A DNA stretch of 64,000 nucleotides from Prorocentrum cordatum. Lineage: Eukaryota. The stretch lies in the NCBI GenBank assembly GCA_963575745.1, contig CAUYUJ010000126.1:248001-312000 (forward strand), read 5' to 3'. Shown here in pieces: positions 13,889 to 51,224 of this stretch. The number at the start of each line of letters is the position of its first letter. Position 1 is the first letter of the stretch. Under the pieces are notes generated by a model that worked only from the letters and a program-made list of their open reading frames with translations, was not told the origin of the DNA and did not search any database. The position numbers and the translations under genes were made by a program.

Positions 13889-16800
13889 TGACACCCCATG
13901 GCTTGACAAAGCAGGCAAAAAAGGGAGGAGGATTGTTTGCAACATCGGCGCAGAGGATGACTGCACGAACGACTGTGCATGCTCGGGCAGGTTGCAGTGA
14001 GGTCGGGCAACGCTCGAGACTCACATCCCCAGGGTGTAACCGAGTTGCGAAGCCTACGTGCCCACCGCAGGCAAACAGCCTGGGGCGAAACGGACGGCGC
14101 AAGAGAAGACAGCCACGCTGCGCGGGAGGCCTTTGCAAATCTTCCAGGACATCGTCGACGAACTGCACAGCTGCCTTGCAGGATGTAAATCCAATTGTAC
14201 CGGCGTCCTCGCATCCTGTGATCGGACAGCGACAGGTTCAGACGCGGGCAGTGTTTGCCCAACTCCGTCACCCTGCCTCCAGTGCTATAGAACTTGCACC
14301 GCGTGCAAACCGCTATAAACGGGCCGCCCGAGCAGTCGAAAGCAACAATCTTGTGCCCCAGCTCCTGAAGAGTCTGGGACTTAGACCGCGCAGGCCGTCG
14401 GGGCGAGCACGTGGCCCAGCGGGGGGTCGCTCAACGCTCGAGCCCCTTAGACAGAGACTGCATTGCCAAGATCTCCCAAACGCGTGCTTGTCCGCAGCCA
14501 GGCGGCTGGCACCGCCAGCAAGACTTCACGCAGAGCGCGCCTTGGAGGTTTGATCTGGACCACCGCGGGAGCACGTGCGCAGCCATCTTCGCGACTTGCC
14601 GCGCAATGATAATCTTCCTCGCCAAAGCGAGCACTTCCTCCGTCGACGGTCTGGGATGCTGTTCGCGGCCTAAGTTGGCCAGGCAATCAGCGTGATAGTT
14701 GCCTAGGCGCAATCGGTATTCTGCCTCGGGCAAGCTGTCGTCAAGCGTTTGGTGCGCACGCGCCTTACATGGATGGCTGACAAACTGCTGTCAGCCTGAG
14801 AGAGCTTGCAACGTGAACCCTGCATGCGCGCTTGCGAGACAGCGCGAGAGGTCTGGCCATCTGCCAATGGTTGACGACCGATTGGCAATCTGAGAAAATC
14901 GTGGTGGGGCCCGCCAGCATATACACCACGGCAGCGACAATCCCGCACTCGGGCCACTGGGGCGTCTGGGACCAGAGGGCCCACAGAGGAGCAAACAACT
15001 CAGCCCCAATGGGGCCATCGGGTTTCAAAACCACACCTCCACAGCCAACCCTGGACAGTTAGTTCACGGACCGGGTGTGAGTGGCTGGGCCCGTCGATGA
15101 ACAGGTCCCCGGAAAGCTCTAACCCTCCTGCTCCTGCGCTGTTTGTCCCCCTGCGGCATAACATTCAGAAATGACGCCGCCATCGGTCAGAGGTCTAGGC
15201 CAGTGGCCCCCTGGGTGCCGGAACAAGCTACGGGAGAAGAGCATGACATCCTCGGTTGAGGTCGCCTCCGCGGCCTCGGCGCAATATTTCCTGCGCTTCT
15301 CCCCTAAAATATCGCCCCTCTCCTCCTGGCATCTCGTGCATGGCCGCGGGCAGTGCAGGAGAGAATCCTCGGCCGCCCCGCGCCGCTCGCACAAAACGCT
15401 GTCGACCTGGTAGCCGAGGGCCTGCGCGCGCACCGGCGCCCAGACGGAGATGGCGGCGGCGCCCCTGATGCAGCCCCTCTGCAGAGGCGTGCACTTGGAC
15501 GACGACGCCGCCGTCTTCATGGTATCAAGATATGCCCTGCCATCGATCCCCCAGTTATCAGCCACGTTCCTCTCCGACGCCCGAATGACGGCCTGCTTCA
15601 GCGGTGCCCCTGCCAGCTGTGGCGCAGCGAGGGTGAGTGAGGTCGGGTTGCCGAAATCGTCGACGACATCTGCGAACGGCTCCATCGTCCAACCCTTCTG
15701 GCTAAAGGAAGGCGCAGCGCTGCCATGGGACCTGCTACTTTCCGCCAAGTGACCGAACGAGATTGTCTGCAGGCCGCCCCCCATCCAGTCCAGAGCCCAT
15801 GCTATGAGAGAGCCCCTTCGGACAACCGAGCATGTCTATACCAAATCTCCTGGCCGTCGCGAACAGCGACGCCCGCCGATCCAAACCGAGCAAAATCGCC
15901 CTCTAAAACCATCATCCCAGGCAACGAGATCAGCCCAGCCGGTGGTTTAATCGTCGAAGCGGCCCCCCTACGAACCTGCGGCAATTCGTGATCCGACATC
16001 CCGAAGACAACGCAACAGCGAAAACTCATGGCATACAACAAACCCGCACGGATGTGCATACGCTTGCCGGTAAACATCTGCTGGCGCTGGAGCCGCCTGA
16101 CCTTCCTCTTGAGAAAGGCCATGCGGGCGCCGAACTTGTTGGACCGACCTGCTTGTCGCCTGGCCAGCCCAGCAGTGGCATCAACGCTTAGGATCGCCGT
16201 GGCCACGAGGCGAGGCCCCGCAAGGGCCCCAAGATGATCCTGGATGGCCTTAGCTACCGCCGCGCTGGATGAGATCATGGCAATCTTACCTGCGGGGATC
16301 CTCGCCTCCATGTCAATCGCGATGACATGGTGTTCAAAATCAGCAGCAGCACAAATGTCCCGCGCAACTCGGATCTTGCGGGCCAACAGACGTGAACACG
16401 CTGTCATCAATAAAGGTATATCGAGCCGTACTGTGTCGTATCGTAGCCATAACCTTGTCATAGGCCTCCAAAGCGGATGCGCGTACATGCGCGGTAGCGA
16501 AAGAGCAGCAAACCACGACCCCTCTGGCCACAACCACGGACCGTCGTTCAAACCAGCAATTGAAGCATAGCGCGGAGCACGGTAAGCAACCAACGTAATA
16601 TAACATACGGCAGGAAGAAGCCCTTGTCGAAGGGCGGGACAAACTAAACAGTTCATTGTATTCGTGCATGTCCCACAAAAGTCCTGCCGCCACCTCCCCG
16701 TCTGAAGCGCCCTGCTCCGCTCTGAGGGCTTGCCTCCGCGCGAGTTCCAGTGCTCCGCGGTGGTACCCAGCCGCGAAGTGGGACCTCTCATGATTTAGCC

Positions 16801-19800: not shown

Positions 19801-20199
19801 GGGGGCGAGGGGAGGCCGCGCGCCAGGGGGCGCACCGAGAACCCATGTCTCCTTCGGGCAAGGCGGGGCGCTGGAGCTCGGCTCGGTGAGGGCAGCCCCG
19901 CAGCGCTTGCAGAACCTCGCCTTGTTCTCGTTATTGGAACAGCCGCATGTCGCGCGCTCGGGCCATCCTTGCCAGTCGCTCCCCGCTGACCGTGCCAGGC
20001 GCGGGAGTCGTGGCCGCGCCACTGACCTCCGCCCCCCCCGTTGCCCCCGCTGCCGTCGCGCCGGGGGTGTCCCATGAAAGAACGACTGAGCGCCGAGCCA
20101 GGCTCGCCCGCTGGCGCCGCGCCGTTCCGAAGTGAACGCCAATGATCGCAGGTGGGGAATGCAGTCCGCCGCGCGAGACCTGCGCCAGATCGGCTAGGG
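13889..20199 (-). mobile_element. Full-length but decayed LINE (Zn-finger ORF1, APE, RT, zf-RVT, RNase H) with relic SL at its 5' end
   Basis: In order on the minus strand: CGCSNNENKARFCKRCG (~19900-19950); coiled coil; APE SGGVAILAW and LVGGDFNL (~18100); RT AVGVDG, WRPIG, LLWDMHEY and FIDD (16403-16414); CERRGAAEDSLLH; RNase H LFIDG (~15095), IFSDCQSVV and GNYHADCLA. 20179-20199 reads ccctagccgatctggcgcagg, 15/21 identical to DinoSL. Confidence 0.88.
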
Positions 20200-24650: not shown

Positions 24651-26249
24651 CAGCTTAAGCGGTGGGAAGGGGGAGCGAGGAGGGGAGGAGGACGAGGAAG
24701 CGGAAGAGGAGGGAGGGAGGGAGGGAGAGGGAGGGAGGGAGAGAGGGAGGGAGAGAGGGAGGGAGGAAGCAGCAGGAAGGGTGAAGGCGGACGGCGGCGA
24801 CGGCGACGGGGCGGGCGGGGAAGGGCGCGCTTCGCCACGGCAAGCCCCTCACCGTCTCCCACAGGTCCCTCGGCTCGGGCAGGCCGGGTATCAGGCTGGA
24901 CTGACACCTCCGCGAGGGGCAGGGGGAGGGGGCCCCAGGCCCCTGGCGTCTGGAGCAGCACCAGGGCGGAGGTCACTCCACAACTCGTCTGGGATGAAAA
25001 ACGCCGGCAGGGGACAACGGGCAAAGACAGGTACAAAAACAGCACGGCATCGGGTGTGGAGCGGAGAGGGTCGAGGCACAAAGCGTTTGGACGCTTGGGC
25101 TCTTTTGAAGCCTTGGGAGCCCCCCCGGGAGCCTCTGTGGACCTCCAAAACCTCTCGGGGTCTTGGGGTACATTTCGGAAGAGAAGAGGGGTAGGGAGAA
25201 GACGAAGGAGGCGAGGAGAGAAGGAAACAACAACGATGTGGTAACAATCCCACAAGCCGCGTGGGATTACTTGGTTTAGCGGACTCGTTCCTCCAGCTCT
25301 CGTCCTCCACTTCGGGTAAAACCCCTTCCCCTAACCCCTCCCCTGGGTCTGGGCGGCCCCCACCCTCCCCTCCCACACCCACCTCCTCCCTTCACGCACT
25401 CTCCCCCCCTCCCCGCCCGCTCCCCCCCCTCCTCCACCTCCCCCTCCCCTCCTCTCCCTTCACTCCCCCAAATCCACTTCCCCGTCACCGTCCAACCCCC
25501 CGTCCCCCGCCCCCCCCTCCCGAATCCCACCAGCCCTCTGGGCACACCCTCCCCCCACCCTCCCCCCTCCCCTACATCTTGGCGGTCTGCCCCTCGACGC
25601 GTTCCCTGATGGCTCCAAGATGTTCCTCCTCCTCCTCCTTCTCCTCTGCCCCCTCCTCCTCCTCCTCCTCCTACTCCTCCTCCTTCTCCTCCCTGCGCGC
25701 GCAGAGTGCGCCCATGAGAGAGCGCCCATGACAATGTCCAAGATGGAAGAGGGCTGTGCACGGTGGCTTCCAGCATGCTCCAGCAGGCCCCAAGACCGTT
25801 CCGAGACGGCCCACTTTGGCCACGGAGCCTCCCGAGGACGCCGGGACGACCCCCGTGCGGCTCAGAAGTGGCCACGGAGCGTCCCGACGGGGCGCGGATA
25901 GGGCCTCAGCGACCTCCAGATGGCCCCCAAACGGCTCCAAGATGGCTCCAGGAAGCTGCCAGAACGAGAGGTCCGCAATAGCAGTTATGGCTGAATCGTC
26001 GTCGTCGTCGCCGCCGCCGCACTCTTTCCAAAATCCTTTGCTTCCTCCTCCTCCTCATCCTCCTCTTCCCCATCACTCCCATCTCCTCCTCCTCCTCCTC
26101 CTCCTCCTCCTCCTTTTCCCCATCACTCCCATCTCCTCCTCCTCTCCTCTCCTCCTCCTCCTCCTCCTCCTCCTCCTCCTCCTCCTTCTCCTCTGCCTCC
26201 CACCTAAAGTGCACAAAAAACATTGAGTGGGAGCGCGATCCGTGAAACT

Positions 26250-29100
26250 CGCCTGCCCTCCGTTCGCGCTCCCTCAGTCTTAAGACTTCTACGGCACGCT
26301 GTGCACGGGGCTCCTCGAGCAGAGACGCCTTGCTTTACAGAATTCGCCTACTGCGCTGCCGCTTTCTGCGCAGATTTGCCTCGGACCCAAGGCCCCGATG
26401 TTCCCGTAGCGACCCGATCAGGCCGACCCTCGGGGTCGCGGCTGGCGTCAGACATGCAAACAACGCAGCAGCAGCGCTTCTTCACCTTCTCTGGCAACTC
26501 ATGGGAGCCTCCCATACCATCTCTTTGGCTCTTGCGCATCGACGCAAATCGACGCAAAATCGGCGCTACCTCATCGACTCCCAGACGCTAATCGACACTA
26601 ATCGACGCTAAAGACGGCATTCAGAGAGTATACCAAACTCCAACGATTTGCTACCAAACTGCACCCGAATTTGAATTTGGTCCGTCGTGCGTATTTTCCT
26701 AAGGGTCTGTTCGCCAAGTCTTGGGCCGATGATGCCAACTATCGCACGGAGGGCTCGAGGAAACAGAGTTGCTAGCCTCACCGATGCCGCCGTCAATTCT
26801 TCCCCAATGATCCCAAAGACGGTCTACGCCTGTCGGAAAAATCACTCGTTCTGGCTTTGGACCGCGCCCTCGCGGCCGAAACCGCATCCTCCCTGAGAGC
26901 TGCGGGACTGCAGGTCGAGAGCCAGGGGGCCGCGGCGGCTTTAGGCAGCGAGCGGGGCCCTGACGGATTGCACAGAGCTGAACGGCCCCGACGCAGGAAA
27001 CAGCTGGCCAAGCGGCAGGCGTCCAGACTGGCCAGACTCGCAGGTAGCACAGCCGGCGCGCGCGCGGCGCGCCGAGTGGTCACCACGGGGTTACACATCG
27101 ATCATGGTGATCAGGACCCTGCCATCTCACTGCCGTCCGCCACCGTTTGCCCTCTGGTTTGAGCTCATGTCGTCTTCCGCTCCCATGCGCCGACGAGCGG
27201 CTCGGGCCTGGCCGCGGGCGCTCGAAGAAATCCGAGAGGCTAAGCCTCAGCAGCGGTGGCGGAAGAACAATGAATGGCGCGATGGCGGGAACGATTTACG
27301 TGCTTCTGGCCGCGGGCTGGGGCCCAGAGGGTCCTTGGCACTGGACCCACCCTTGTGGTGACAAGTACGCGGCGTCAGAAGCTGCTTTTTAAGGTGACCC
27401 CGACTGGGAAGAGTTGTTCGAGGTGTTGAGACGATTGATATCTGCCGCAGCATGGGGAGCCTCGCGAAACTTGGGGCGGACAAGTGGAGAGGAGCACTTA
27501 GCACGGTCATGTGTGCAGGATATTGGCCGAGGGATCGGCTTGAAAACGCATGGGTGAAGGTGGATTCCAACGTTTGTCCGAGGTGTGGCCTGGAACCCGA
27601 GACTAGAGGGCAGCACATCCAACTAATGGTCACCCCGACACGCGAAGCCGCTCAGCAAACGCGCCCACATGATGAATCGAACAGGGCAAGGCTGTTTAGT
27701 AAATGCCAATTGTCGAGGTCCGGGTGGTTTCTCCTCCCTTGAGAGACGGGCCTGCACCGCTGCTTGGGCTGCGAGGCGAACGGTCAGACCCCCAGGGTGC
27801 GAGGCGACCCAGGGGCTGGCCAGCCGGGCCCTCGAAGGGGCCGCCCGGCACCCATGCTGCGGGCTCCCAGCGAGCAGTCCCACGGGAAGGGGCTCGGCTG
27901 CCTGAGCCACCCGACGCTCTCATGATCGAGCTCGAGCCCGCGATCCAGGTGGCTTCCGCCCGTGACGCCTGTGCTGTGCGCGGCACCCTTTGGTCCGCTC
28001 CGAACCGAGGGGCGGCCTCCGGCCTGCAGGCGACGCCCCGAGAAGCCCGGGCTCTCGGGCCGCGCTCGGCTCCGCCGCGGCTCCCGGGCGGCTGCCTCGG
28101 CGGGCGAGGGCCAGGGCCCCGGGGCGCCGAGCTCGGTCCAGGCGTCGGGGGCCTTCGGGGGCCCGTTGCCAGGGAGGCGGCAGGGGATCAACCGAGGCGA
28201 GAGTCTTGCTTTGAAGGAGGTCCTGCAGGCCACTCCTGGCCGCGATCTTTCTCATGCTGCCGATAGCGCCTGCGTCGTGAGTGGGCTGTACAATCTGAGA
28301 TCGAAGGCCTGCTGGAGGCTAAGGCAGAATCGCAATGTGTGGAACCTTGTGCGAGAGCCGACGGGGAGCCGAGGCGTCCAAGCGAGGTCCGACGCCATGT
28401 CTCGGAAGACCTGCTGGAGAGGTGCCGCCCCGAGCAGCGCGCGCTTCTCGCTGTCAGCGACTTGGCTGGTAAGTCAGCTGAGAGGTTCTGCCCTGATGCC
28501 CAGGTGCCTCCAGGAACTGCCGAATCTCCCAAGGGGCTCGAGGCAGAAGCGAGGGTCATTCGGAAGCGGCTGACTTCCATCCTATCCTGCATGCCTGCCT
28601 CCGCTGGAGCAGGGGAGAAGGCGGCGGCGCAGGGAACGGCCAAGCAGAAGCTCGCCCTGCCAGCGGCCGGCAGAGGCAGTGCACCTGCTGAGTGTCACGG
28701 GGTCGTGGGGCTGTCGCCGTCGCCAGTGGCACCGTCGTACTTGTGGTTCGGAAGCCGCCACCGGGTGCAAATCATCAAACATTCCAGGGCTCCGCGCGCC
28801 CTGCCGTGCCCCTGGACTCGTCGCGTGAGGCGGGGCCTCGTAGGCGGGGTGTCTCGGCCCACCCTTCTCACAGGATAGGGTGGTGGGAGGCGGGGGTGGG
28901 CACGCAGAAGGAACTGATGCTCGCCTGCTCGAGGTGCGGAGGTCTTGGCACACACCACCCCTGCTCGACTGGCAAGCTTGCCATGCGAGCCTCCCACACG
29001 TAGTGGGCTCGAGTACTTGAAGGATCTCGGGAAAGGATGGGCTCCAGGCCACACGCAGCTGGCTAAGAAGGTCAACGTCCTGCGGTGATCGTGGAGGGAG
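26250..29100 (+). mobile_element. Decayed, internally deleted LINE (APE remnant, post-RT, zf-RVT, RNase H, Zn finger) downstream of (CCT)n at 26040-26200
   Basis: FFTFSGNSW; ARAWPRAL; AGYWPRDRL...CPRCGLEPET; GPLPGRRQGINRGE, AADSACVV, NRNVW; HPSH...CSRCGG. Collinear with ORF2 of the 44-51 kb element. Confidence 0.8.
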
Positions 29101-29409
29101 AGCTGCGCAGAGCTTAATCGAATGGCATCCTGATTCAACACGGCCGCCGCGAAAGAATATCGGTTTGATCCAAAACTTCGCTTTCGCAACTTCCCCCTCG
29201 CCCCTCCATGGAAAACAAAAAAGTAGCATGGCATGTTTTCTGGATGGGCTGATGGGGATACGTCAAACACCCCGCAATCGCGGATAAGAGTGAGGGGGCG
29301 GCGGAGATGTCTAAAGTCTTCGAGGCTCTGAAGAAGCCCGCCGCACGCGCCTAATTGCTACAAATTATACAACGGTCCCGCCGCAAGCGCAGAATTTTCG
29401 TTCAAACAA

Positions 29410-34656: not shown

Positions 34657-34904
34657 GGGAGCACGGACGAGCTGCGCCGGCCGCCAGAGAGCCGGGCGCC
34701 GTCCCGGCTCGGCGGCCACTCCTCTCCAGAGGAGCGGGAGCGGCTGCACGGCCGGCCGCGCCGGGAGGCCCGCGCGGGCCACGCGCACGGCTGCGCTCGC
34801 GCACACTTTCTGCTCTCGGGCCTGCCTCCTGCCCCCCGCTCCCCCTCCACGCCCTCTCCCGCTCCCCCTCCTCCTCTCCTCCTCCCTCCTCCTCCTCTCC
34901 TCTC

Positions 34905-34979
34905 TCTCCTCCTCCTCCTCCTCCTCCTCCTCCTCCTCCTCCTCCTCCTCCTCCTCCTCCTCCTCCTCCTCCTCCTCCT
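34905..34979. repeat. Pure (CCT)n tract at the 3' junction of the retrocopy
   Basis: Direct reading. Confidence 0.97.
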
Positions 34980-35006
34980 GTATCGTAGTACACGGAGGGG
35001 CCAAAA

Positions 35007-36306
35007 TCAAGCCAGCGTTGCGACTCCTACCGAGACTGTGGAAGAACTATGGCTAGACACGTCCAGGGCCTTGGAATGAAGACCAATACGATGCTGACAT
35101 TCGGCCGGAGGCGTGGCTTCGTCGCTATGGTCGTCCTCCCCGAGGAGGCCTCCAACAGAACACCCTGCTCGCCCCAGATGCTTGACGAAGAGGTTCAAGA
35201 AGCTAGTGCCACTGCGCGTGCGGCCATACACGACTTTCAGCATGACCTTACCCAAGGTAAGCCACTGTGGAGCCTCGTCAGCGTCACTGCTCGACGCGTA
35301 GTGGTACCATCCTCTCCTGGTTGCCAGTGCCCAAGACCCTGTGATGTTTATCTCTTGGAAGTAGATATCCTGCGCAACTCCCGCCCATTCGAAGCGCCTC
35401 GGCCACCACGCGAAGTAATGTGTGTTCAGGGCCCTGCCCGCGAGGGATATGTATCAACACATGCTGGCCCACTTTCATCAGGTCATATCGCTCGCCATAC
35501 ATATTTTGAAGGTGGGGATCTCCAAAGCAGTCGCCGTGCCCGAGACACTGGGCGTCGGGCTGGGCGTCGGACTCGGCGTCGGACTCGGCACGGGCTGGGC
35601 GTCGGGCTCGGCGTCGGGCTGGGCGTCGGGCTGGACGTCGGACTGGGCGTGGGACTGGGCGTCGGACTGGGCTCCGGGCTGGGCGTTTGACTGTCCTCAA
35701 GTTGGAACGCGATCTCCCGAATATATGGTTGATAACCAGTTGAGGTTTGCGTGATCACCAGTCGAAGATGCTGCACTGGGGTGTCGTAATCGACGTCGAA
35801 GTCCTGCACGTTATTAATTCCCGTGGTCACTGATCCTAGCGAAACAAAAACAGAGTTGAATGTTCCGACTTGTGCCGTTGACGTGTAAAGCACCGCCTTT
35901 GTAACATCATGTGTCGTATCGCCCCAATGTTGGATTCGAATACCTTGCAGAGTGTACTCCGAGCCAAGATTAAACTCGATCCACCATGCGTTATGGTACC
36001 GGGGTGCCCCCCAGCATTCCAAAATGTGTTTGTATTACCATCCATAGTGTTTGTCCCAACTTGAGTTGAATGAGCTGTTTCCCAATCGACGATCCAAGAC
36101 GTGTCCTGGGACCACGCGACTGTCTCCATACCGCGGTTCGTGATGTTGAAGAACTCCTGCTTGAGCTTTCCAGTGCCCAAGCTTGCCGAGTTCGTAAGGT
36201 CGTTCTTGTTGGACATGTCCTGGGTCATGGACACCACATGCAACGCGGCCCCTCCTCCAACTGAAGACAACAGCCAAACAACGGTAATCACGAGAGAATG
36301 GGCCAT
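35007..36306 (-). CDS. Intronless retrocopy: putative secreted protein with F5/8 type C (discoidin/CBM32-like) domain, Pro/Ser/Thr linker and GDPH-motif (vWD-like) C-terminal domain; several frameshifts as assembled
   Basis: Signal-like MAHSLVITVVWLLSS; DGNTNTFW, WWIEFNLGSEYTLQGIRIQ and LRLVIT...IREIAF; (PSPT)n; GDPHLQNMYGERYDLMK...GGLLGEDDH; stop at 35007-35009. One frameshift lies in a G run at ~36007-36012. SL 140 nt upstream of the ATG. Confidence 0.8.
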
Positions 36307-36433
36307 TGTGCCGGAAAAGACTGACCCGTAATCACGGAGAAACGAGCTCGAATATTCGTGTGTGTGTGTGTGTGCGTGTGTTCATATAGCGGCCGGCCGA
36401 TCCACACAGATGCTCCAACCGGAGGAACAGCTG

Positions 36434-36468
36434 CTTGAGGCAAGCGCTTGAGCCAAAATGGCTACGGA
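36434..36468 (-). other. Genomic DinoSL (36447-36468, 22/22) followed by a relic SL (36434-36446)
   Basis: Reverse complement reads TCCGTAGCCATTTTGGCTCAAG-cgcttgcctcaag. Confidence 0.97.
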
Positions 36469-37767
36469 CCTCCTCCTCCTCCTCCCTCCTCCTCCTCCTC
36501 CTCCTCGTCCTCCTCCCCTCCTCCCTCCTCGGAGCTCTGCTGCACTGGTCGTGCAAGCACAATGCCAAGTGGAAGAAAGAGGGCGAGACCCGACGTCAGG
36601 GGCCAACCCTGGAAGGGCAAAGGAGTAACCTTCTCAACCTGGAGCTTGGTACCAGGCACCACTCCTGATTCCGCTCTTGCTCTCGCTGCTGCTGCTCCAG
36701 CCCCTATTGCTCCATCCTCCCCCCCCACTTCTGGCCTCTGGATGACCCCGACCATGTTGATGGGCGCGGTGAAGAAGCTGAGCACCGACTGGGCAGTCGC
36801 CCCTAGCATCAACCTGCTGGGTTCGCTCTTGCGGGCGGTAGGCTAAGATCCGGAACGACAAAACCAAACCTCAATTCAAAGCTTACTACAAAGCAAACGG
36901 GTGCCGCAGGTGCAACGTGTACGCCCACCTGGTCTGGTCGCTGAGGGGAACGGATAAGCAGATGGGCCAGTCGAAAGATCGATGGTCCTCCTCTCCTTCC
37001 TGCTCTCCTCCTCCTCCCTCCTCCCTCCTCCTTCTTTCCTCCAACTCCAAGTTCTCCTCATCCTCAACCTCATCCTCAGCCTCCTCATCCTGTATCCTTC
37101 GTCGTCCCTCCTCCCTCGCCCGAACCCCCCTCCTCCGCATTGGCAATTCGGCTCTGACCACAACTCCGAGGAGAATCCGGCCGCGGCGACGAGAAGCCCC
37201 GACGAAGCCCAAGACGACGAACGAGCAACACGCACTCACACCCATGGGGGTGACGGAGAGGGCTACGGGTGCGTGTTGTCGGATGGGCCCCCCCCACCGC
37301 TCGAACAGGAGCCTCCCCCGGGGTCCGACGACCCGCACCCATACCCATAGGCAGCAATCATCCCTCCTCCCCCCGACCCCGCTGTGGGTATGCGTGTGTG
37401 CTGTTCTTTCGTCGCAAGAGAGGGCGGACGCCATCCCAGACGGCTGAACCTCAAACCTCAATCGCGAACTTCCATCCTCGTCTTCCTGTGGCATGAAAGA
37501 AACGGGCACTTAAAGAACAGACGTGTTATTGCCTCAGATTTCCGTGCGTTGGGCACGCAAAAACCCTCCAAGAAATTGCCCGTGTAACCGAATTCAGGTG
37601 TTGCTAATTAGCAAGGAGGCCTCGTTTGTTAACGAACCCATCCAGACTATCCAAACAAATCACTCCACCACGGACTTTCCCTGTGACACGGTCTTCCATC
37701 CGGAGCCGCTTGCCAACAAAGCTGGGGTCCGCGAAGGTCCCGTCGGCCCGACGAGGGCCGAGACCCG

Positions 37768-43491: not shown

Positions 43492-43875
43492 GGAGAGCGT
43501 CGGCACAGCTCTGCCCCCCAGGTCATCGTGCGCTCGTACCCCCTGCCAGACTGAGGGAGGCGCAGGGGCGCGCTGCGCCATCGGCATCGACATGCACGGG
43601 GGACCAGTGTACTTCAAGCACACGCCATTTTTCTTGTGATATCCCTCGTCGTCTGTCTCGCTCCCCCCTTCTCCCCTCGAAGAAGAAAGGGGCATGCGCA
43701 TGAACTTCCGAAGCGCGTGCATTTCTTTGATCGGCGCTTGGCCCCTCCGGGATGCGCGGAGCGCGCCAGGGGCGGCTATTGAGGCGCCGCCAGGGGGCCA
43801 AGCGCATGTCCAGAAAATCCGCGCGGACCTCCGAAAGTCTATGCTTGAGCCCCGCTTCCTCCTTCGGCGCCCCCC

Positions 43876-44001
43876 CCTCCTCCTCCTCCTCCTCCTCCTC
43901 CTCCTCCTCCTCCTCCTCCTCCTCCTCCTCCTCCTCCTCCTCCTCCTCCTCCTGCTCTTCCCTCCTCCTGGTCATCTGCCTCCTCCTCCTCCTCTTCCTC
44001 C
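43876..44001. repeat. (CCT)n microsatellite, 5' flank of the intact LINE
   Basis: Direct reading. Confidence 0.97.
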
Positions 44002-44023
44002 TCCGTAGCCATCTTGGCTCAAG
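44002..44023 (+). other. DinoSL at the first nucleotide of the retrotransposon (21/22)
   Basis: TCCGTAGCCATCTTGGCTCAAG versus DCCGTAGCCATTTTGGCTCAAG. Confidence 0.95.
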
Positions 44024-44163
44024 ATGCCTAGTTCCGCAGGGGAACAAGTGGATACCGCTAGTCCGCGGCCAGTGCCAGGGCTCTCTAGCCCGACAGTTTT
44101 GTTCAACACTCCGTGTGCCTCCTGCTGCCCGCAGGTGAGCTTTCTCTGTTCCTCAGCTCGTCC

Positions 44164-45389
44164 ATGGCGCCTCCGCAGCAGCGCAGCGGCTACGTCAAGT
44201 GCTACTCCTGCTCGTACGCCTGGAACTGGAAGACCAAGCAGACGTGCTACTGGTGTGGCAAAGCTTTGGCGCCGTGGACAGATGCCCCGCCTCCGGTGCA
44301 AGGTGCTTGGGCGGCCCGTGTCTCAGCCGCAGCCCAGGCCGAGGCCAAGTGCACCCAGCAGTCCAGCCCCGAGGGAGGTTGGGAGCCGTGGTCATCATGG
44401 CCCAATTCCCGCCGCCGCCGTGGCAAGGGCAACGGCAAGGACCAAGACGACGACTGGTGGGCCAGCAAGAACGACACCCCCAAGGCTCGCTCCGCCGAGG
44501 ACATCTTGGCGGAGCTCCAGGCGATCGCCCCCCACATCGACAAGGCAGCCATTGACGGCATCAAGTCGCAGATTCCGCCGCCCCAGCCGCAGAAGCCAGC
44601 CGACCTCAACGACATCTACAGCCGCGCCCAGGCTACGGAGCGCCGCTGCAAGAACAACCTGGAGAGGCTGCTGGAGAGCGAGCAGAAGGCGCTCAGCTGG
44701 TACACAGAGCGCAAGCAGGCGTCGGAGGAGGCCGCCTACAAGTTGGCTGAAGCCCAGGCGGAGGCCCAAGCGGCTCTCGACGCACTCCAAGCCGCCCGCA
44801 AGGGCGGCACAGCTACTTCTACGCCGTCGCAGCAGAACCCGACCTTCAACCTCACCAGCCTCCTCGAGGACGGCGACATCTCCATCGAAGCGGGTGCAGC
44901 GTTCGATCTCCAAGGCCTCGACATCGACGACAGCGACCGCCAGGCATGGGAATCCCTGCAACAGCGCTTTGCCACGGAGCTCAAGGCCAAGGTCACTGAG
45001 CTCTTCGGCAACACCGCCAGCCGCATCAGCCAGCTCCGAGCAGAGGCCAGCACCATGCGCACGCGCTTCGCCTCCAAGCGGCAGCGCGCTGACGAGGATG
45101 GGCACGCCAGAGAGGGAGGTGGATCACCGCCCGCCGCCTCGGCTGCAGCAGGCGAACCCCCAGCGGCAGCCGCAGCGGATGCTGAGGGCACTGCGCCCTC
45201 TCCGCCAGCGGCGCCAAGCGATGAGCCTCCCGCACCTGCTGCTGGCGTTTCTTCTGACGGCGGCTACGCCACACTGCCTGTACCTGCACTCAAAAGGACC
45301 CCGACCTCGAAGACAAGGCACAGAAGATGCTCAACCAGATGCGCAAGCCCACTGCTGCCGCCGCCGCTGGACCGCAGCAGCCTCTTTAG
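44164..45389 (+). CDS. LINE ORF1: RanBP2-like Zn finger and coiled coil (end inferred across a 1-nt frameshift at ~45292)
   Basis: MAPPQQRSGYVKCYSCSYAWNWKTKQTCYWCG; heptad region ERRCKNNLERLLE...QAALDALQAA. The -1 frame from 45291 gives KDPDLEDKAQKMLNQMRK...PL* (TAG 45387-89). As assembled, the frame instead runs on into the endonuclease. Confidence 0.7.
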
Positions 45390-45480
45390 CCGACTACAAC
45401 CCGACCCTGGACGGAATGGTGAGACGGGGCGCCTACCGTCAGAGACCACGATCTACGACAACCCACCAATCATCAACACA

Positions 45481-48400
45481 ATGGACGCAGTCCTCGACCC
45501 GTTCGACGAGCTGGCCGAGTTGGACGCCCACATCGATTTCGCAGTTTCCGAGCAGTACGCTACCGCCCCGCCCGAGACGCTGTCCTCGGTAGGGGGCGAT
45601 GAGGCGGCACAGACCGTCGACCCCGTGGTATGGGACCCAGGGCAGCCGCAGCGTGCTACGCGGTCCGACCCTGATGCCGCTCCGCCCGAGACGCTGTCCT
45701 CGGTAGGGAGCGATGAGACGGCGCAAGCTGTCGACGTGCATGTGGTACAGGAACCAGGGGAGCCGTCGCCAAAGGCAAACCCTGATGCCGCCCCGCCCAA
45801 GACGCAGCCCTTGGTAGGGGGCGATGAGATCGCGAAAGCTGTCGACACGCCCGCAGGGAAAGGGCCATGGAAGCCCAGCAGCCCGAGAGCCGACCCTAGT
45901 CCCGCCTACCAAGACGAAGGCCCTACGAAGCCCCCGCTGTCAGACCATTCCCTGTTCTTCTCCAACATTACTCAATGGGGACCACAGTCGGAGAAATGGT
46001 TGGCAGGACCAGGCAAGCAATATCAGATGGTAGCATTAGTTGAAACACACATCTCGCCTGGAAAAGCGCCGCCCATGTACGACAAACTAGCAGCGGATGG
46101 TTGGAGAATATCATCGACTACGGCCACTCCTACCAGTAGATCAGACGGCGGCAACACGGGTGGCGAGATCATCTTATCCAGGTACCATGTCCAGGCCACC
46201 ACGTTCAACCACCTCCGTGACCTTGCCATTTCCCAGCGCAGGCCTGACCCGTTCCTCGGCTTCACGCCCATGGTATGGCACAGACGTTCTGGCAACTTGG
46301 TTGTTATTGCCGCGTATCTGGAACCCCACAGGCAGATCGAGGGTGCAGTACACGATAAGCTACTTTCGCTGGGAGCGTTCGTTACTATGCTCACAGACCC
46401 TTGGATCATCCTGGCCGATTGGAACATGACACCTGAGCAGCTTGCAGCGACAGAGTGGCTCGCCAAATGGAATGCTACCATCGTGCGAGCACCTGGATCC
46501 GCCACTTGCGACAAGGGCCAGGGACTCACGCTTGATTTCGCATTGGTCAAGACTGGCATCGAGCACACGATCTCCATTCGCCAGTGCCCCACAGTACCCT
46601 GGGCCACCCACGTTGGCCTTGAAGTTCGAGCAGGCAGTGCAGACCCCTGGTGGTATCAGTCGATCGATACCCCCAAGTCCTTCCCCATAGTGGACAGACC
46701 CAGGATTCCGCCAGACCCCAACAGCAAGACCGCCATCAAGAAACGTAAAACAGCTGAAGCTCGAGCAGCACGTCTCCGTGATCTACCTCCTGAACTCCAA
46801 CAAGCAGCAGCACAGCTTCAGCCACAAGGCGAGCCCGCAGCACAGGAACCTATCCCCTACGCCATCCCGATGGACTTGCGGGAAAACAATGGCAGGAAGC
46901 GGTACCCACACGTTGTAAGCAGCCACACGCGCACTTCGTGTACAGACACTGGGTGCACGACGCCGACGTCCTCAACCTCAAGTACGCCAAATGGGTCACG
47001 GCGCTCGAGAACACCATGATCAGCCACCACCAGATTGACCCGAAGGCAGCTGCAACATACACTGGCCGAGCTCAGGGCTACCAGTTATCTTGGAAGAAGA
47101 CAGCTGCTGCCCCAGGCCGCGTACACGTACACGACCCACATTCGGAATGGTGGGCAATTACGCTCACCCTCATCAAGCGCTACGCCGCGCTTCACGACAA
47201 GCCCAAGCACGCAGCGCTTATGCAGCAGCAGGCCACCATCATCCAGCAGCGCGCGGACCACTTCAACACTCACATGCACGACCTTCAGTTCGAGAAGGAT
47301 GAGGACACCATCTTCCGCTGGTTTGCGCTCGTCTGGGCCCCGCACCTGGACAAGGATGACACCGACGACTTGGTCACCATTACCGCTACCTGGGCCTCCA
47401 GAGCCCTCTCGGCCGCCCTCGCCAAGTCCAAGAGGGCCTACGGGGCTTGGCTCGCCCAGCAATGGAAGCACCGCCCTGGAGTACTACACGCCCATGTCAA
47501 GCCAGCACCCGCACGTCACATCGAGGCCTACACGGCCAACCTGACCATCGCTGACCCCGCCGTCATCATGGACAACAAGAAGCAACAATGGCAGCAAGTA
47601 TGGCAAGCCACCGAGACCTCCGACGACATCCTCCAGGCCCTGTCAAAGGCCAAGGCAGCAGCTGCTCATCAACCGCTCGAGCCCATCACAGCCGAGATCG
47701 TACACCGCATTCACGGCCGCATGCCACCCAGTAAAGCACACGGAGTTGACGCCCTAGGACCTCGCGACCTCCATCGATTACCAGAACCAGCAGTCGAAGC
47801 TTATGCAGATATCCTCAACTCAGTGGAGCAAGCAGGCATCTGGCCACTACAAATTTCAGGCACCATTGCAGCTCTCGCCGCCAAGAAGTCTGGAGGCGAC
47901 AGGGTCCTCGGCATGCTCCCTCATATGGCCAGACTCTGGTCTCGCATTAGATCTACCGCATCGGCAGCCTGGACGCAAGGTCTGGACGACTTTTGGACTA
48001 CAGCCATCAAAGGCTCTTCAGCTCTCCAAGCCGCCCTACATAGGGCCTTGTTAGACGAGACAGCCTCAGCACTTGGCATACAGTCGGCCACCTTGCTATT
48101 AGACATCCAGAAATTCTACGACAATATCAAGCTCGCCAACCTCATCATGGTCGGCCTCAACTGCGGCTTTCCCCCCATCCTTCTATTATTGGAGGTGCAG
48201 CTATACCTGGCGCCCAGATTCTTGCGCAGTCGGCAATGGGTGAGTATGCCTATCTTCGCCTCCAAAGGCATCATTGCAGGCTCCCCTCACGGCACCACCC
48301 TGGCACGACTTATTTTGCTACCAATTATTCGACAAGCCCAAGCTCAGGCAGAGCTTGCCCAGGTGTGGACCTTCGTCGACGACACTGCTCTTCGAGTCGA

Positions 48401-50876
48401 AGGAGTCCTACGTGCTTTACAGAAGCACCTCTCCCGTGCCGCCAGGACGCTCTGCGACGGATTAAAGGAGTTCGAGCTGCCTATCTCAGACAAGACCGTC
48501 CTCATCGGCTCCACTCCCAAGGTCCGCCACTCGCTAGCCAAGAAGATGCGACAGTACGACATCCCAGTTACTGCGACCTCCACGGCCGTCGACCTTGGAG
48601 TTGACGCGGCCGCGGCTACTCGACGTGTACAAGCCAAAGCCGGGAAGCGACAGATCTCAGCCACAGCCAGGTTTCGCAAGATACACCGACTACGGAGCAC
48701 TGCACAGCAGGCCCGAATCTCAGCTGGACTGTGGCGCACTGGTGCTCTCCCAGAAGGAGTATTCGGTCATCAGGTTCACGGCCTCGCTCGGCACGCTCTA
48801 CTACGCTGGCGGCGTCAGGCCGCCATTGCAGCCACGGGCGCTGCCGCAGGCCGATGCCTCGCCTCCCTCCTCGGCGCCACTTTTGACGGCATGGGCCCAG
48901 GAGTTTCCCTAAGGATCGAGTTCATCGAGGCTTGGCTTCAGCGCTGGATGCGCCACCCGAGCACGCACGCCAGGATCATCAGAGCCTGGCCAAGGATCAA
49001 GACCACCTTGCTCGCCGCTGGCCCCAAGCTGTGGTGCGAGGTCAAGGGCCCCACAGGCGCGGCCATCGCGACCCTGCTGGAGGCTAGTTGGGAGCCGACC
49101 TCAGCTACCAAGTGGAGGCGTACGAAGGACGGCTACATCGAGGAGTGGAACCTCCCCCCTGCCGACGACCCCGACCTCCTCGACGCCGACATTCACACAG
49201 TATTGCAGGACCTCTGCGAGGATTTACACAGGCTCCTCTGGACGCAGGCCGCTACGCATGCCCATGGAGACACGCTGGCTGGAGGCGCAGACATGGTCAC
49301 TATCCGCATTGAACAAAGGAGGTTCCTCGCAAACGGCGACTTCAGCGACTGGGCCCTCAACAACACCATCATCAGCGGAGGACAGTGGACCAGAGACCGC
49401 CTCCACAACGCGGGCTACCAGATCGACAGGAACTGCGACCGCTGCAACGCTGGAGTTCCTGAAACCTTGTTTGACCGAATGTGGCAGTGCGAGGCGAACG
49501 TTGGGCCCGAGTTTGAGGCCAGCGACGAGCTACTGCCGCGAGCCTTGGCGGGGGCCGACGCCGACCCCGCCTTGTGGCTCCGTGGCATTCCCTCTGTTGC
49601 TCTCACTACGCCCACGTTCGAGCCATTGACTGGGAGGGACGGGTGGGAGTTTGTTGGTGCGGTGCGGGAGGGTTTGCCGTCCTGGGAAGGTGCTCGTAAC
49701 GCAGAGGGTGAGTTGTTTCTTTTTGGTGACGGGTCTGGCGGTGCCTTTTCTGACGACGTCAGGCGACGTCGCGTCGGATCTGGCCTCGCGGCCCTCCGTT
49801 GGAACCCTCCCTCGGCCTCCTGGACCCTCCGCGCGGGCCTCCTTGCCCCCCTCCCAGGCCCCCGCCAGACCGTCCCAAGAGGAGAATTATATGCGTTTTG
49901 CCTGGCACTAGAGACGTGCCATCAGGATTTCACGTTTGTTACCGATCACCTAGCCTTGCAGCGTGGTTGGCAGAATGGCAGATGTCTCAGGCCAGGCAGC
50001 CTCAGAGGTAAGAATAAGAATGGAGATCTCTGGCTGAGAATTCGGCATCTCGTGCAGGATCGACCTTGCGGCGTCTCCTCGGTCACGGTGCTCTGGACCC
50101 CATCTCATGCCGATCCCCAGACTCTTCACGGTTTTCAGAAATTCCTAGCTCTCGGCAATCAGCAAGCCGATGAGCTTGCGGGAAGCGCGGCCCACAAGTC
50201 GGCCACCCTTGCCCTCCCGCCTGTGCCCAGGACTGACGAATACGATGCTATCGCAGCGATTGTCCGACAGCGGGCACGACTAATCCTACGTTCCTTAGGA
50301 AAGAATTCAGAGCCTCGAGGACTGTGGCCAGAGAGGCAACCCACGCAGGAGGCAGCCCCTCGTTCTCTGTTGCAGACCGCGATCGCGGCTTCACAGCACA
50401 AATTCGAGCGGTGTGCAGACAAATGGCGATGCTGTGCCTGCCTCATCATCGTCGATGCTTGCCAGGTTATTCCAGCCGCCGCCACGGAGTGTGTACCGCC
50501 TTGCCCCCTTCCCGAGTTTGCTGCTTGTGGCGAGGTGCTGTGGTCGAGGGGTCCCCGTGTGATCAGTGGCAAGGCGATACACCCCTCCCACACGTTGGCC
50601 ACCATCCCCAAGTGGCAAATGTTCTTCTGCGTGAAGTGCGGCCATACGGCCATACACCAGGTCAAAAGCTTACAGTTCCCTTGCCCTCTCACCCACCAAG
50701 TGGGAGAGCGCAGGGCCCTGGGACCCACTGGCAAAGGCCTCGAAAACCTCAGCAGGATCAGGCGAGGCCTCCATCCGTCCAGATCGGGTCCCAGCAAGTC
50801 TGTTCTAGAGGCTATGCATGTTTCGGCAGCCGAAGCCGCGATCGTTTCTCACGCGGCTGGCGCTGCCTCTGAGTAA
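45481..50876 (+). CDS. LINE ORF2 polyprotein: APE endonuclease, RT, zf-RVT, RNase H, C-terminal Cys/His fingers (one frameshift at ~46883; start codon inferred)
   Basis: APE: FSNIT, LVETH, AAYLEP, ILADWN, TLDF, WATH. RT: KAHGVD, DRVLGML, LLDIQKFYD, GIIAGSP, FVDD (48372-83). CDRC...ETL...WQC. RNase H: FGDGSG, RGELYA, VTDH, NGDLW, WTPSH, GNQQADELA. Then WRCCAC and HPSH...FCVKCG. Confidence 0.92.
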
Positions 50877-50884
50877 ATTGCGAG

Positions 50885-50963
50885 GCCAGGGGGGCCTGTC
50901 GCGGTGTGCCGTGGGATGTCGCCCCCCACGGCTCTCCGAGAAATTCTGGATGGCCCCCCTGGC
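50885..50963 (+). other. Structured 3' UTR element of the LINE
   Basis: Perfect 12-bp stem gccaggggggcc (50885-96) / ggcccccctggc (50952-63) enclosing an 8-bp hairpin gccgtggg/cccacggc and a tccgagaa/ttctgga hairpin. Confidence 0.75.
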
Positions 50964-51224
50964 GTCTCTGGGTTCCCGAACGGACTACGTCCGATTGCTC
51001 CACTCCACTCCTCCTCTTCCTCCTCCTCCTCCGTCATCCTCCCACCTCCCCCGAAAATAGCCAATACCTTCTGAAGGCATGCGAGAGCAATCGACAATAC
51101 CCCCCGACGGCGACGACGATGATACCATTATGGGAGTCGAGGGCCGAGGATCTGATGTCGAACGTCGATGATCCAGGATCAAGGGTGGTAGCCCCGAAAG
51201 GCCAGAGGAGGGCTCAGAGGTGCC

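What the first reader, a model, noticed from the sequence alone, without database searches (positions are those of the whole stretch)
43876..51032. Target specificity for (CCT)n with a diagnostic 16-bp TSD and no poly(A) tail
Seen: ctcctcctcttcctcc, including the variant CTT unit, occurs at 43986-44001 and 51008-51023. The element ends ...gattgctccactcca with no A tail. Related elements at 13889-20199, 23870-24650, 20560-23250 and 26250-29100 also abut CCT/GAG tracts, mostly with CCT on the sense strand. Known: microsatellite-targeting APE LINEs exist (e.g. Waldo, Mino, Kibi/Koshi). Inference: an endonuclease that prefers (AGG)n, with priming through the CTCCA-like 3' end, and nested build-up in these tracts.
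Basis: partly seen in the sequence, partly recalled or inferred. Interest (0 to 1): 0.8.

Follow-up and report, generated by a model that had tools for sequence, protein, structure and literature searches.

The report
Spliced-leader-capped LINE inserted in CCT microsatellite
A nearly intact jumping gene (LINE) of a dinoflagellate sits inside a CCT repeat, starts with the host's spliced-leader tag and has no poly(A) tail, and a dead copy of a host gene nearby is built the same way, hinting at how these algae copy genes through RNA.

Summary
The 16-mer with the CTT variant stands at 43986-44001 and 51008-51023, the match runs to 19 nt, and the element ends ...GATTGCTCCACTCCA without an A tail.

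The element (44002-51007, +) is a young, high-copy APE-type LINE, very probably of Prorocentrum cordatum. It carries a Zn finger, a coiled coil, an APE endonuclease with its catalytic residues, RT, RNase H and a C-terminal Cys/His motif. It reads as one long frame with a single copy-specific frameshift.

This fixes the RNA's 5' end, so the (CCT)43 upstream was a pre-existing target and not an element tail.

A second, perfect SL at 36468-36447 (-) heads a processed pseudogene of a host F5/8-type-C gene. It also lacks poly(A) and lies between GGA/CCT tracts, but in the opposite polarity. A decayed distant LINE (13889-20198, -) is likewise flanked by CCT on both sides.

Family-wide target specificity could not be tabulated: no genome was held and the read tool skipped the junctions.

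Verdict: a new variant of the microsatellite-targeting LINEs, with a possible link to dinoflagellate retrogene formation.

The parts
43870..43985 (+). Upstream part of the pre-existing (CCT)n tract, about 43 units with a few variants. It lies outside the element's RNA.
   Evidence: It lies 5' of the spliced leader, so it cannot be templated by the element's RNA.
43986..44001 (+). Left copy of the target-site duplication (16 nt; the identity continues to 44004).
   Evidence: chance estimate.
44002..44023 (+). DNA-encoded dinoflagellate spliced leader (22 nt, D = T, 1 mismatch in the T run). This is the 5' end of the element.
   Evidence: 20 of 21 matched, 0 expected in shuffles. The SL sequence is as printed in PMC5585692 (passage).
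44024..44163 (+). 5' UTR. Its first 50-70 nt (about 44024-44096) are shared with other, otherwise different sequences in public runs.
   Evidence: table 7, shows loose ends at 44069, 44073 and 44096.
44164..46880 (+). First part of the long ORF, starting at ATG 44164. It holds a CxxC...CxxC Zn finger (about 44191-44268), a coiled-coil/low-complexity region with a 111-bp coding tandem repeat (45563-45846), and an APE-type endonuclease (about 45928-46728).
   Evidence: Model pLDDT 77.3. Foldseek best match TRAS1 EN, E = 5.7e-10. Conserved N17, E43, Y134, D168, N170, D207 and H232 of the domain.
46876..46884 (+). Copy-specific frameshift between the endonuclease part and the RT part.
   Evidence: Another copy's gene model (P0006, 94-99% identical) reads through here. 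Contigs of 3 runs carry one more base at 46882-46884 (table 4).
46884..50876 (+). Second part of the ORF: RT (about 47883-48452), CxxC zinc motif (about 49434-49500), RNase H (about 49716-50192), C-terminal Cys/His motif (about 50430-50684), stop at 50874-50876.
   Evidence: Pfam RVT_1 E = 2.6e-8 and weak RNase_H. PDB profile search: RNase HI E = 1e-6, LINE-1 ORF2p RT E = 3.3e-5. Invariant Cys/His columns.
50877..51007 (+). Structured 3' UTR ending ...CTCCACTCCA, with no poly(A).
   Evidence: Fold -67.5 kcal/mol, z = -3.64, 0 of 200 shuffles as stable. Read depth falls in the bin 50891-51100 (table 2).
51008..51023 (+). Right copy of the target-site duplication (identity to 51026). The rest of the tract runs to about 51052.
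34980..36468 (-). Processed pseudogene of a host F5/8-type-C gene. It starts with a perfect 22-nt spliced leader (36468-36447), has no introns, at least 3 frame changes, a 3' UTR of about 30 nt and no poly(A).
   Evidence: Pfam F5_F8_type_C E = 1.3e-7. Collinear with P0013 and P0014 in three frames.
36469..36530 (-). (GAG)n tract directly 5' of the pseudogene's spliced leader.
34825..34979 (-). (GGA)n tract directly 3' of the pseudogene. A duplication of up to 17 nt is possible but cannot be resolved in a pure repeat.
13889..20198 (-). Decayed, distantly related LINE flanked on both sides by CCT tracts in sense (20367-20196 on the 5' side, 13888-13407 on the 3' side). It starts with a possible degenerate spliced leader.
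   Evidence: Collinear profile hits at 17050-16646, 15520-15323 and 14769-14548. Junctions read. The SL-like 21-mer has edit distance 6, which is chance level window-wide (15 expected) but sits exactly at the tract edge.
26202..29400 (+). 5'-truncated, decayed related LINE. A CCT tract (26034-26201) lies on its 5' side only; its 3' side abuts a (GCGGGTGGGTC)n array.
   Evidence: Collinear profile hits from 26815 to 28372, best E = 3.6e-8. Junctions read. The ends are estimated, not proven.

Best explanation
This is a young, almost intact copy of a high-copy APE-type non-LTR retrotransposon (LINE) of a dinoflagellate, very probably Prorocentrum cordatum.

Shown:
- The copy begins with the 22-nt spliced leader that dinoflagellates trans-splice onto mRNAs, so its template was a mature, SL-capped RNA copied to its very 5' end.
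- It ends in a structured 3' UTR without poly(A).
- It is bracketed by a 16-19 bp duplication of a variant-bearing piece of a (CCT)n tract. It therefore entered a pre-existing CCT·AGG microsatellite through staggered nicks.

Inferred:
- The element's APE endonuclease nicks the microsatellite.
- The freed 3' end of the AGG strand pairs with the CCU-like 3' end of the RNA (...CUCCACUCCA, perhaps with read-through CCU repeats) and primes reverse transcription. This pairing takes the place of the poly(A)/T-tract pairing used by L1.
- Which microsatellite strand primes, and hence the orientation of the insert, is set by which strand can pair with the RNA. LINE RNAs therefore end up CCT-sense. A host mRNA with a GGA-rich stretch in its 3' UTR was primed from the CCT strand, inside its 3' UTR, giving the nearby poly(A)-less, GGA-sense processed pseudogene.
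- Repeated insertions split one long tract into the chain of tracts seen at 13.4-24.8 kb.
For: Identity and build of the element:
- Pfam RVT_1 E = 2.6e-8.
- Profile search of the PDB finds RNase HI (E = 1e-6) and LINE-1 ORF2p RT (E = 3.3e-5).
- The endonuclease model (pLDDT 77.3) matches TRAS1 EN at E = 5.7e-10, then E. coli ExoIII, human APE1 and R1Bm EN.
- The catalytic-type residues N, E, Y, D-N, D and H are kept in 93-98% of the 91-141 relatives that have a residue at each of those positions (156 aligned stretches from the best 150 representatives), and all are present here.

High copy number and youth:
- 992, 806, 258 and 348 contigs of 4 runs from 4 studies lie on it at >=90% identity.
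- Both frames are open, with one frameshift that other copies lack.

Spliced leader:
- 20 of 21 positions match at 44003-44023, with 0 expected by chance. The sequence is as printed in PMC5585692.

Target-site duplication:
-; chance is about 0.2-1%.

Association with tracts:
- Both spliced-leader sites in the window (2 of 2 with <=3 mismatches) abut a CCT/AGG tract with no spacer, although such tracts cover only 3.3% of the window.
- Of 4 LINE-like bodies found by the profile, 2 have tracts at both ends, 1 at one end and 1 at none.
- For the decayed copy, the 3' end extrapolated from the profile coordinates (about 13.9 kb) agrees with the tract edge at 13889.

Processed pseudogene with the same junction style.

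Structured 3' UTR: z = -3.64.
Against: - Only one copy of this very family lies in the window. The other two LINE copies are distant relatives, so 'family-wide specificity' rests on very few junctions.
- The 26.2-29.4 kb copy has no CCT on its 3' side, where target-primed insertion should start.
- The RT fragment at 7406-7693 has no adjacent tract.
- The pseudogene sits in the opposite polarity, so a simple strand-specific endonuclease preference does not hold.
- The pairing between ...CTCCA and the AGG strand is only about 4 nt.
- The window is unusually rich in CCT/AGG tracts, and the genome-wide density is unknown.
- The 3' ends of the decayed copies were partly placed with the help of the tracts.
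- No nicking, priming or transcript data exist.
Confidence: 0.6

Rival explanations
1. Non-specific LINE in a microsatellite-rich, repeat-rich region. Insertions and CCT tracts both pile up here passively, as was proposed for Waldo-A/B near CA repeats in Drosophila. The flanking 16-mer is a true duplication but says nothing about preference.
For: The window is crowded with tandem repeats and satellites. CCT/AGG-type tracts number 24. One related copy has a tract on one side only and one RT fragment has none. Passive accumulation is a known explanation for some elements (PMC3812793, passage).
Against: Tracts cover only 3.3% of the window, yet 2 of 2 SL-defined 5' ends and both 3' ends of those inserts lie exactly at tract edges. 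Passive accumulation predicts nearness, not insertion inside the repeat with a duplication made of the repeat.
Confidence: 0.2
2. Endonuclease-independent insertion at breaks. CCT·AGG mirror repeats can form triplex DNA and break or stall replication, and any RNA being reverse transcribed is captured there during repair.
For: Both polarities are used. The host mRNA was primed inside its 3' UTR and without poly(A).
Against: There is a clean 16-19 bp duplication, a full-length 5' end and no deletion at the site, as expected from staggered nicks. The family keeps an endonuclease with conserved catalytic residues.
Confidence: 0.1
3. The CCT tracts are made by the element: a microsatellite 3' tail added by RT slippage, with head-to-tail insertions into earlier tails.
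For: Many LINEs without poly(A) end in short tandem repeats (general knowledge). CCT follows the 3' end in sense in 2 LINE copies.
Against: The long tract lies 5' of the spliced leader, outside the RNA. The DNA just upstream of that tract shows no LINE homology. The 3' tract is short and repeats the variant-bearing 16-19 nt of the 5' side. The pseudogene carries the complementary repeat in sense.
Confidence: 0.05

Closest known systems
Microsatellite-targeting APE-type LINEs: Waldo (ACAY), Mino (AC), Kibi (TC), Koshi (TTC), Dong (TAA)
   Same: An APE-type endonuclease LINE found inside a simple repeat and flanked by it. Kibi and Koshi also use polypurine·polypyrimidine repeats (PMC3812793, passage read).
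   Different: The target would be CCT·AGG, which is not in that list. The host is a dinoflagellate rather than an animal. An RNase H domain and a long N-terminal Zn-finger/coiled-coil part are fused in one ORF. The 5' end is a spliced leader. Phylogenetic placement with those elements was not tested, and the protein is too divergent for Pfam to see the endonuclease.
TRAS1/R1Bm-type target-specific LINEs
   Same: The best structural match of the endonuclease model is TRAS1 EN; R1Bm EN is also listed. There is no reliance on poly(A). From recall only: in R1Bm, pairing between the target and the 3' end or read-through of the RNA helps set the junction.
   Different: Sequence identity to these endonucleases is 12-13%. 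Few LINE endonucleases are solved, so the match shows the fold, not kinship.
Dinoflagellate retrogenes with DinoSL relics
   Same: A DNA-encoded 22-nt spliced leader at the 5' end marks reverse transcription of a trans-spliced RNA (PMC6050394, PMC12014239 and PMC5585692, passages read).
   Different: Here the tagged RNA is that of a LINE itself. The insertion sites, a duplication and the lack of poly(A) can all be read. In the passages read, those papers state that the machinery of retroposition is unknown and do not describe insertion sites.
L1Tc/ingi of trypanosomatids (LINEs in another spliced-leader organism)
   Same: APE-type LINEs living in a genome where mRNAs are trans-spliced.
   Different: L1Tc makes unspliced transcripts from an internal promoter, Pr77 (abstracts listed). 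The element here carries the spliced leader itself.

Membership tests
APE-type non-LTR retrotransposon (LINE) | Reverse transcriptase of the LINE type | tested here: met
   Pfam RVT_1 E = 2.6e-8. The nearest solved RT is LINE-1 ORF2p, E = 3.3e-5.
APE-type non-LTR retrotransposon (LINE) | N-terminal apurinic/apyrimidinic-like (EEP fold) endonuclease with catalytic residues | tested here: met
   Pfam misses it in the window copy. The model (pLDDT 77.3) matches TRAS1 EN, ExoIII and APE1. N17, E43, Y134, D168, N170, D207 and H232 are conserved in relatives and present here. The Asp that precedes the catalytic His in APE1 (recalled) is Thr here.
APE-type non-LTR retrotransposon (LINE) | No terminal repeats of its own; flanked by a target-site duplication | tested here: met
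   Self-comparison finds only the microsatellite and an internal 111-bp repeat. A 16-19 bp duplication is present.
Microsatellite-target-specific LINE (Waldo/Mino/Kibi/Koshi/Dong kind) | Many independent copies of the family all inserted in the same repeat | tested here: inconclusive
   There is 1 copy of the family in the window. 2 of 3 other LINE-like bodies touch CCT tracts. No genome is held, the junctions were skipped by read laying, and the metagenome scan gave 1 partial locus without flanks.
Microsatellite-target-specific LINE (Waldo/Mino/Kibi/Koshi/Dong kind) | Fixed orientation relative to the repeat | tested here: inconclusive
   3 of 3 LINE copies with an adjacent tract are CCT-sense. 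The processed pseudogene is GGA-sense. The numbers are too small.
Microsatellite-target-specific LINE (Waldo/Mino/Kibi/Koshi/Dong kind) | Phylogenetic placement in the R1 or related clade | not tested
   No reference LINE sequences were on hand. Structural likeness to TRAS1 EN is not a phylogeny.
Microsatellite-target-specific LINE (Waldo/Mino/Kibi/Koshi/Dong kind) | Endonuclease cleaves the repeat specifically | not testable with these tools
   Needs an in vitro nicking assay.
Dinoflagellate SL-tagged retrocopy | DNA-encoded DinoSL directly at the 5' end of the copied RNA | tested here: met
   44002-44023 has 1 mismatch and 36468-36447 is perfect. The sequence is as printed in PMC5585692. Neither site is followed by GT as an SL RNA gene's intron would be (recalled; read).

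The most novel reading that the evidence does not exclude
This LINE family (or its close kin) is the so far unidentified engine of the massive gene retroposition in dinoflagellates.

It copies SL-capped RNAs, its own and host mRNAs, into CCT·AGG microsatellites. Priming is by base pairing between the nicked repeat strand and a complementary patch near the RNA's 3' end, not by poly(A). That yields poly(A)-less, 3'-shortened retrocopies flanked by the repeat, with their orientation set by the pairing.

For the LINE itself the result is (CCT)n followed by the SL. That is a polypyrimidine tract in front of the AG dinucleotides inside the relic leader, a ready-made trans-splice acceptor. Each new copy could then be matured and capped from any read-through transcript, without a promoter of its own.
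Probability: 0.25. Interest if true: 0.8.

Novelty: new variant of a known kind. Interest (0 to 1): 0.6.

Why it matters
Dinoflagellate genomes are shaped by retroposition on a very large scale. The passages read in PMC5585692, PMC6050394 and PMC12014239 say that the enzyme and mechanism behind it are unknown, and one of them favours LTR elements. This window shows three things side by side:

- a near-intact, high-copy LINE whose own copy carries the spliced leader;
- a readable insertion site with a duplication inside a CCT repeat;
- a host processed pseudogene with the same junction style.

That makes a concrete, testable proposal for the machinery and its target. It would also add CCT·AGG to the short list of microsatellites used as LINE targets. 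And it shows how a LINE can live in a trans-splicing genome without an evident promoter. My searches for 'dinoSL' with 'non-LTR', and for dinoflagellate spliced leader with LINE, retrotransposon and relic terms, found no paper describing this. Subscription journals are not covered.

Tried and rejected
- Whole genome: none is held, so the proposed flank table could not be made.
- Nucleotide and tblastn self-searches found no second copy of the family in the window.
- Metagenome scan with the protein alignment: the first alignment was too divergent (error). The narrower one gave a single 2204-nt partial locus without flanks.
- Viral-contig scan with the same alignment: none.
- The 17-nt 3' end searched in prokaryote genome contigs gave 45 loci. 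None aligns to the element, so they are chance matches. In viral contigs it gave 0.
- The exact spliced leader in viral contigs gave 119 stretches. Nearly all are AT-rich giant-virus bins and are useless for the CCT question. The roughly 4 GC-rich ones have no CCT upstream.
- Sequencing runs: no RNA holder was listed. The contigs laid show copy number and variants, but the tool skipped 43960-44010 and 51002-51100 as repeats, so other copies' flanks and empty sites could not be seen.
- The 508-aa frame at 18262-19785 (-) has no relatives and is probably not coding.
- Rfam: no hit in the window.
- Earlier findings of the scan: nothing.
- N- and C-termini of related proteins hold no translated leader or repeat that would betray their flanks.
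- Rejected idea: insertion into an SL RNA gene. The whole 22-nt leader stands at the 5' end only and is followed by ATG..., not by an intron.


Full report
**1. The observation**

- The 16-mer CTCCTCCTCTTCCTCC stands at 43986-44001 and 51008-51023.
- Read by eye, the identity continues for three more bases (43986-44004 = 51008-51026).
- The element ends ...GATTGCTCCACTCCA with no run of A.

The 16-mer is not unique. It has 5 exact copies in the window, and the other three lie in other CCT tracts on the - strand.

I estimated chance from the window's own repeats.
- Among the 16-mers of 24 CCT/AGG-type tracts (2112 nt, 3.3% of the window) this word is 5 of 1752, or 3 of 1626 when the element's own flanks are left out.
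- Two random tract 16-mers from different tracts are identical in 1.0% of draws, nearly always as pure repeat.
- A chance match is therefore about 0.2-1%. The duplication is real with good probability, but it is not proof by itself.

**2. What the element is**

Two long open frames fill 44089-47019 and 46794-50876 on the + strand.
- The second frame has a Pfam RT match (E = 2.6e-8) and a weak RNase H match.
- A profile of it and two relatives finds RNase HI (E = 1e-6) and the RT of human LINE-1 ORF2p (E = 3.3e-5) among solved structures.
- The end of the first frame aligns with the N-terminal part of relatives that carry both parts in one protein.
- Pfam does not recognise that part in the window's copy. 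One relative has a weak Exo_endo_phos hit.
- I folded it with 5 relatives (pLDDT 77.3, pTM 0.74). The best Foldseek match is the endonuclease of the telomere-specific LINE TRAS1 (E = 5.7e-10, TM 0.68-0.72 by target length). E. coli ExoIII, human APE1 and R1Bm endonuclease follow.
- A HMMER search of 1.84 billion representatives finds 946 relatives of this domain at E <= 0.001 and 235 at E <= 1e-10.
- In 156 aligned stretches from the best 150, the positions N17, E43, Y134, D168, N170, D207 and H232 are kept in 93-98%, and all are present here. By recall these are the catalytic positions of APE-type nucleases.

The element is therefore an APE-type LINE with RT, a CxxC motif, RNase H and a conserved C-terminal Cys/His motif. 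Ahead of these comes a Zn-finger and coiled-coil part.

**3. Organism, copy number and state**
- The closest named proteins are 'unnamed protein product [Prorocentrum cordatum]'.
- One of them, P0006, is a gene model laid over another copy of this family. It is 94-99% identical to the window's translation and reads straight through the place where the window changes frame, about 46876-46884.
- Contigs of four public runs from four studies cover the whole element: 992, 806, 258 and 348 contigs at >=90% identity.
- Several of those contigs carry one more base at 46882-46884 (table 4).
- Depth drops in the last bin, 50891-51100 (table 2).

The family is thus high-copy and encodes one long ORF. 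This copy has one private frameshift and no stop in either frame, so it is young.

**4. The 5' end is a spliced leader**

The element starts TCCGTAGCCATCTTGGCTCAAG at 44002-44023. That is the 22-nt dinoflagellate spliced leader DCCGUAGCCAUUUUGGCUCAAG, as printed in PMC5585692 (passage), with one T-to-C difference (0 matches expected in shuffles).

Dinoflagellate mRNAs receive this leader by trans-splicing, and a DNA-encoded leader is the accepted mark of a retrocopy (passages of PMC6050394 and PMC12014239). Two things follow.
- The template of this copy was a mature, SL-capped RNA that was reverse transcribed to its first base.
- Everything upstream of 44002, that is the long (CCT)n tract, lies outside the RNA and cannot be an element-encoded tail.

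It also fixes the left edge of the element independently of the repeat, and it falls exactly where the 16-mer ends.

**5. A second spliced leader, on a host gene**

The only other match in the window is a perfect leader at 36468-36447 on the - strand. It heads a copy of a host gene.
- The gene encodes a signal peptide, an F5/8-type-C domain (Pfam E = 1.3e-7), a Pro/Thr/Ser linker and a C-terminal part.
- It is collinear with two proteins of about 50% identity, one named from P. cordatum. It has no introns but runs in three frames. It is a processed pseudogene, unless the assembly carries indel errors.
- Its leader is directly preceded by (GAG)n (36530-36469).
- About 30 nt after the stop codon it runs directly into (GGA)n (34979-34825), with no poly(A).
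- A duplication of up to 17 nt fits but cannot be resolved in a pure repeat.

So both leader-defined 5' ends in the window (2 of 2) abut a CCT·AGG tract with no spacer, and so do both 3' ends, although such tracts cover 3.3% of the window. The polarity is opposite, however: the LINE is CCT-sense and the pseudogene is GGA-sense.

**6. The other 'related elements'**

None is similar at nucleotide level or by tblastn at E <= 1e-3. A profile built from the RT-bearing protein and 7 relatives gives the following.
- 13889-20198 (-): weak, collinear hits (profile 386-520 at 17050-16646, 911-975 at 15520-15323, 1166-1239 at 14769-14548).
  - The 3' end extrapolated from these coordinates (about 13.9 kb) agrees with the tract edge at 13889.
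  - CCT tracts in sense lie at both ends.
  - The body starts with CCCCTAGCCGATCTGGCGCAG. This is 6 edits from the leader, which is chance level across the window (15 expected), but it sits exactly at the tract edge. I call it a possible decayed leader, no more.
- About 26202-29400 (+): clearer collinear hits (profile 634-1159, best E = 3.6e-8).
  - It is 5'-truncated, with CCT in sense on its 5' side only.
  - Its 3' side abuts a (GCGGGTGGGTC)n array. This does not fit a simple CCT-target model.
- 7406-7693 (+): an RT fragment without an adjacent tract.
- 20560-23250 and 23870-24650: no detectable similarity. A C-terminal CxxCG-like motif in the latter, seen by eye, is too weak to count.

The tracts at 13.4, 20.2, 23.3-23.9 and 24.7 kb all have the same polarity. 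That fits one long tract split by successive insertions, but it does not prove it.

**7. Mechanism**

Shown:
- insertion of an SL-capped, full-length cDNA into a pre-existing CCT tract with a 16-19 bp duplication;
- no poly(A);
- a conserved APE-type endonuclease;
- a 3' UTR that folds much better than shuffles (-67.5 kcal/mol, z = -3.64, 0 of 200).

Inferred:
- The endonuclease nicks the repeat.
- From the left edge of the duplication, the bottom-strand nick lies within ...GGAGGAG^GAGGAGG....
- The AGG-strand 3' end pairs with the CCU-like end of the RNA, or with read-through CCU repeats from the donor site, and primes reverse transcription.
- A second nick 16-19 nt away gives the duplication.
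- The opposite polarity of the pseudogene, its very short 3' UTR and its lack of poly(A) are explained most simply if either strand of the nicked repeat can prime. The strand that pairs with the RNA then decides the orientation: the CCT strand pairing with a GGA-rich patch inside that mRNA's 3' UTR.

None of this was tested.

**8. Rivals**
- Passive accumulation in a repeat-rich region explains nearness, but not insertion inside the repeat at 4 of 4 well-defined junctions.
- Endonuclease-independent capture at fragile triplex-forming repeats fits the use of both polarities. It does not fit the clean duplication, the intact ends or the conserved nuclease.
- Element-made tails are excluded for the 5' tract by the leader, and are made unlikely for the 3' tract by the duplicated variant.

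**9. Comparison with what is known**

APE-type LINEs that insert in microsatellites are known: Waldo (ACAY), Mino (AC), Kibi (TC), Koshi (TTC) and Dong (TAA) (PMC3812793, passage). CCT is not in that list, and those hosts are animals.

The mechanism proposed here is of that kind. Membership in their clade was not tested, and the family-wide criterion (many copies, same repeat) is inconclusive here.

SL-tagged retrogenes are well known in dinoflagellates. In the passages I read, however, the machinery is called unknown, and insertion sites, duplications and tails are not described. The P. cordatum genome paper has no match for 'retrotransposon', 'microsatellite' or 'retrogene' in its main text; I did not see its supplements.

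Searches for 'dinoSL' with 'non-LTR' (5 papers), for dinoflagellate, spliced leader, LINE, retrotransposon and relic, and for non-LTR retrotransposon with spliced leader and trans-spliced brought no report of a LINE whose copies start with the leader.

In trypanosomatids, the other well-studied trans-splicing hosts, L1Tc instead makes unspliced transcripts from an internal promoter (abstracts).

**10. What could not be done**
- No genome was held.
- The one metagenome scan gave a partial locus.
- The read tool skipped both junctions as repeats.

The flank table, empty sites and transcripts remain open.

**11. Verdict**

- This copy entered a pre-existing CCT tract by target-primed reverse transcription: about 0.85.
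- The family, or the local retroposition machinery, prefers CCT·AGG tracts: about 0.6.
- It is also the engine of host retrogene formation: about 0.25.

It is a new variant of a known kind, with interest 0.6.

Noticed in passing
Loci L002-L120 (IMG/VR contigs, mostly giant-virus MAG bins): The exact dinoflagellate spliced leader is DNA-encoded at 139 places in these loci (119 stretches reported by the scan). Almost always it lies about 45-50 nt downstream of an AT-rich AAAAATTGA-like motif and directly in front of different gene sequences. These look like giant viruses that hard-code their host's leader on their genes. A search for giant virus + spliced leader + dinoflagellate listed no paper with this in its title or abstract.
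   Followed up: partly
window 44069-44096: Contigs of three runs share the leader and the first 50-70 nt of the 5' UTR and then continue with unrelated sequence (loose ends, table 7). A 5' module seems to be shared with other families or with non-autonomous elements.
   Followed up: no
window 44024-45592 (+): An ATG directly after the leader opens a 527-codon frame that overlaps the main ORF in another frame. It may be a GC-rich chance frame or an upstream ORF.
   Followed up: no
window 45563-45846: A 111-bp tandem repeat (2.5 copies, 78% alike) lies inside the LINE's first frame and encodes a repeated APPETLSSVG.DE.AQ.VD peptide.
   Followed up: no
window 3256-4886, 39356-40497 and 40903-42028: An 89-90-bp satellite occurs in three arrays. 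The middle one is in the opposite orientation to the outer two.
   Followed up: no
window 4206-4323: A short run of telomere-like CCCTAAA(A) units lies between the satellite arrays.
   Followed up: no
window 11743-11905: (AT)56 is followed by an A run of 52 nt. This could be the poly(A) tail of another kind of retrocopy, which would show that A-tailed insertions also exist in this genome.
   Followed up: no
window 29411-29563: (GCGGGTGGGTC)n, 13 units, lies directly at the estimated 3' end of the decayed LINE at 26.2-29.4 kb. It may be that lineage's own target or tail.
   Followed up: no
window 54847-55925: A 73-bp tandem array of about 15 units with higher-order periods of 220-321 bp.
   Followed up: no
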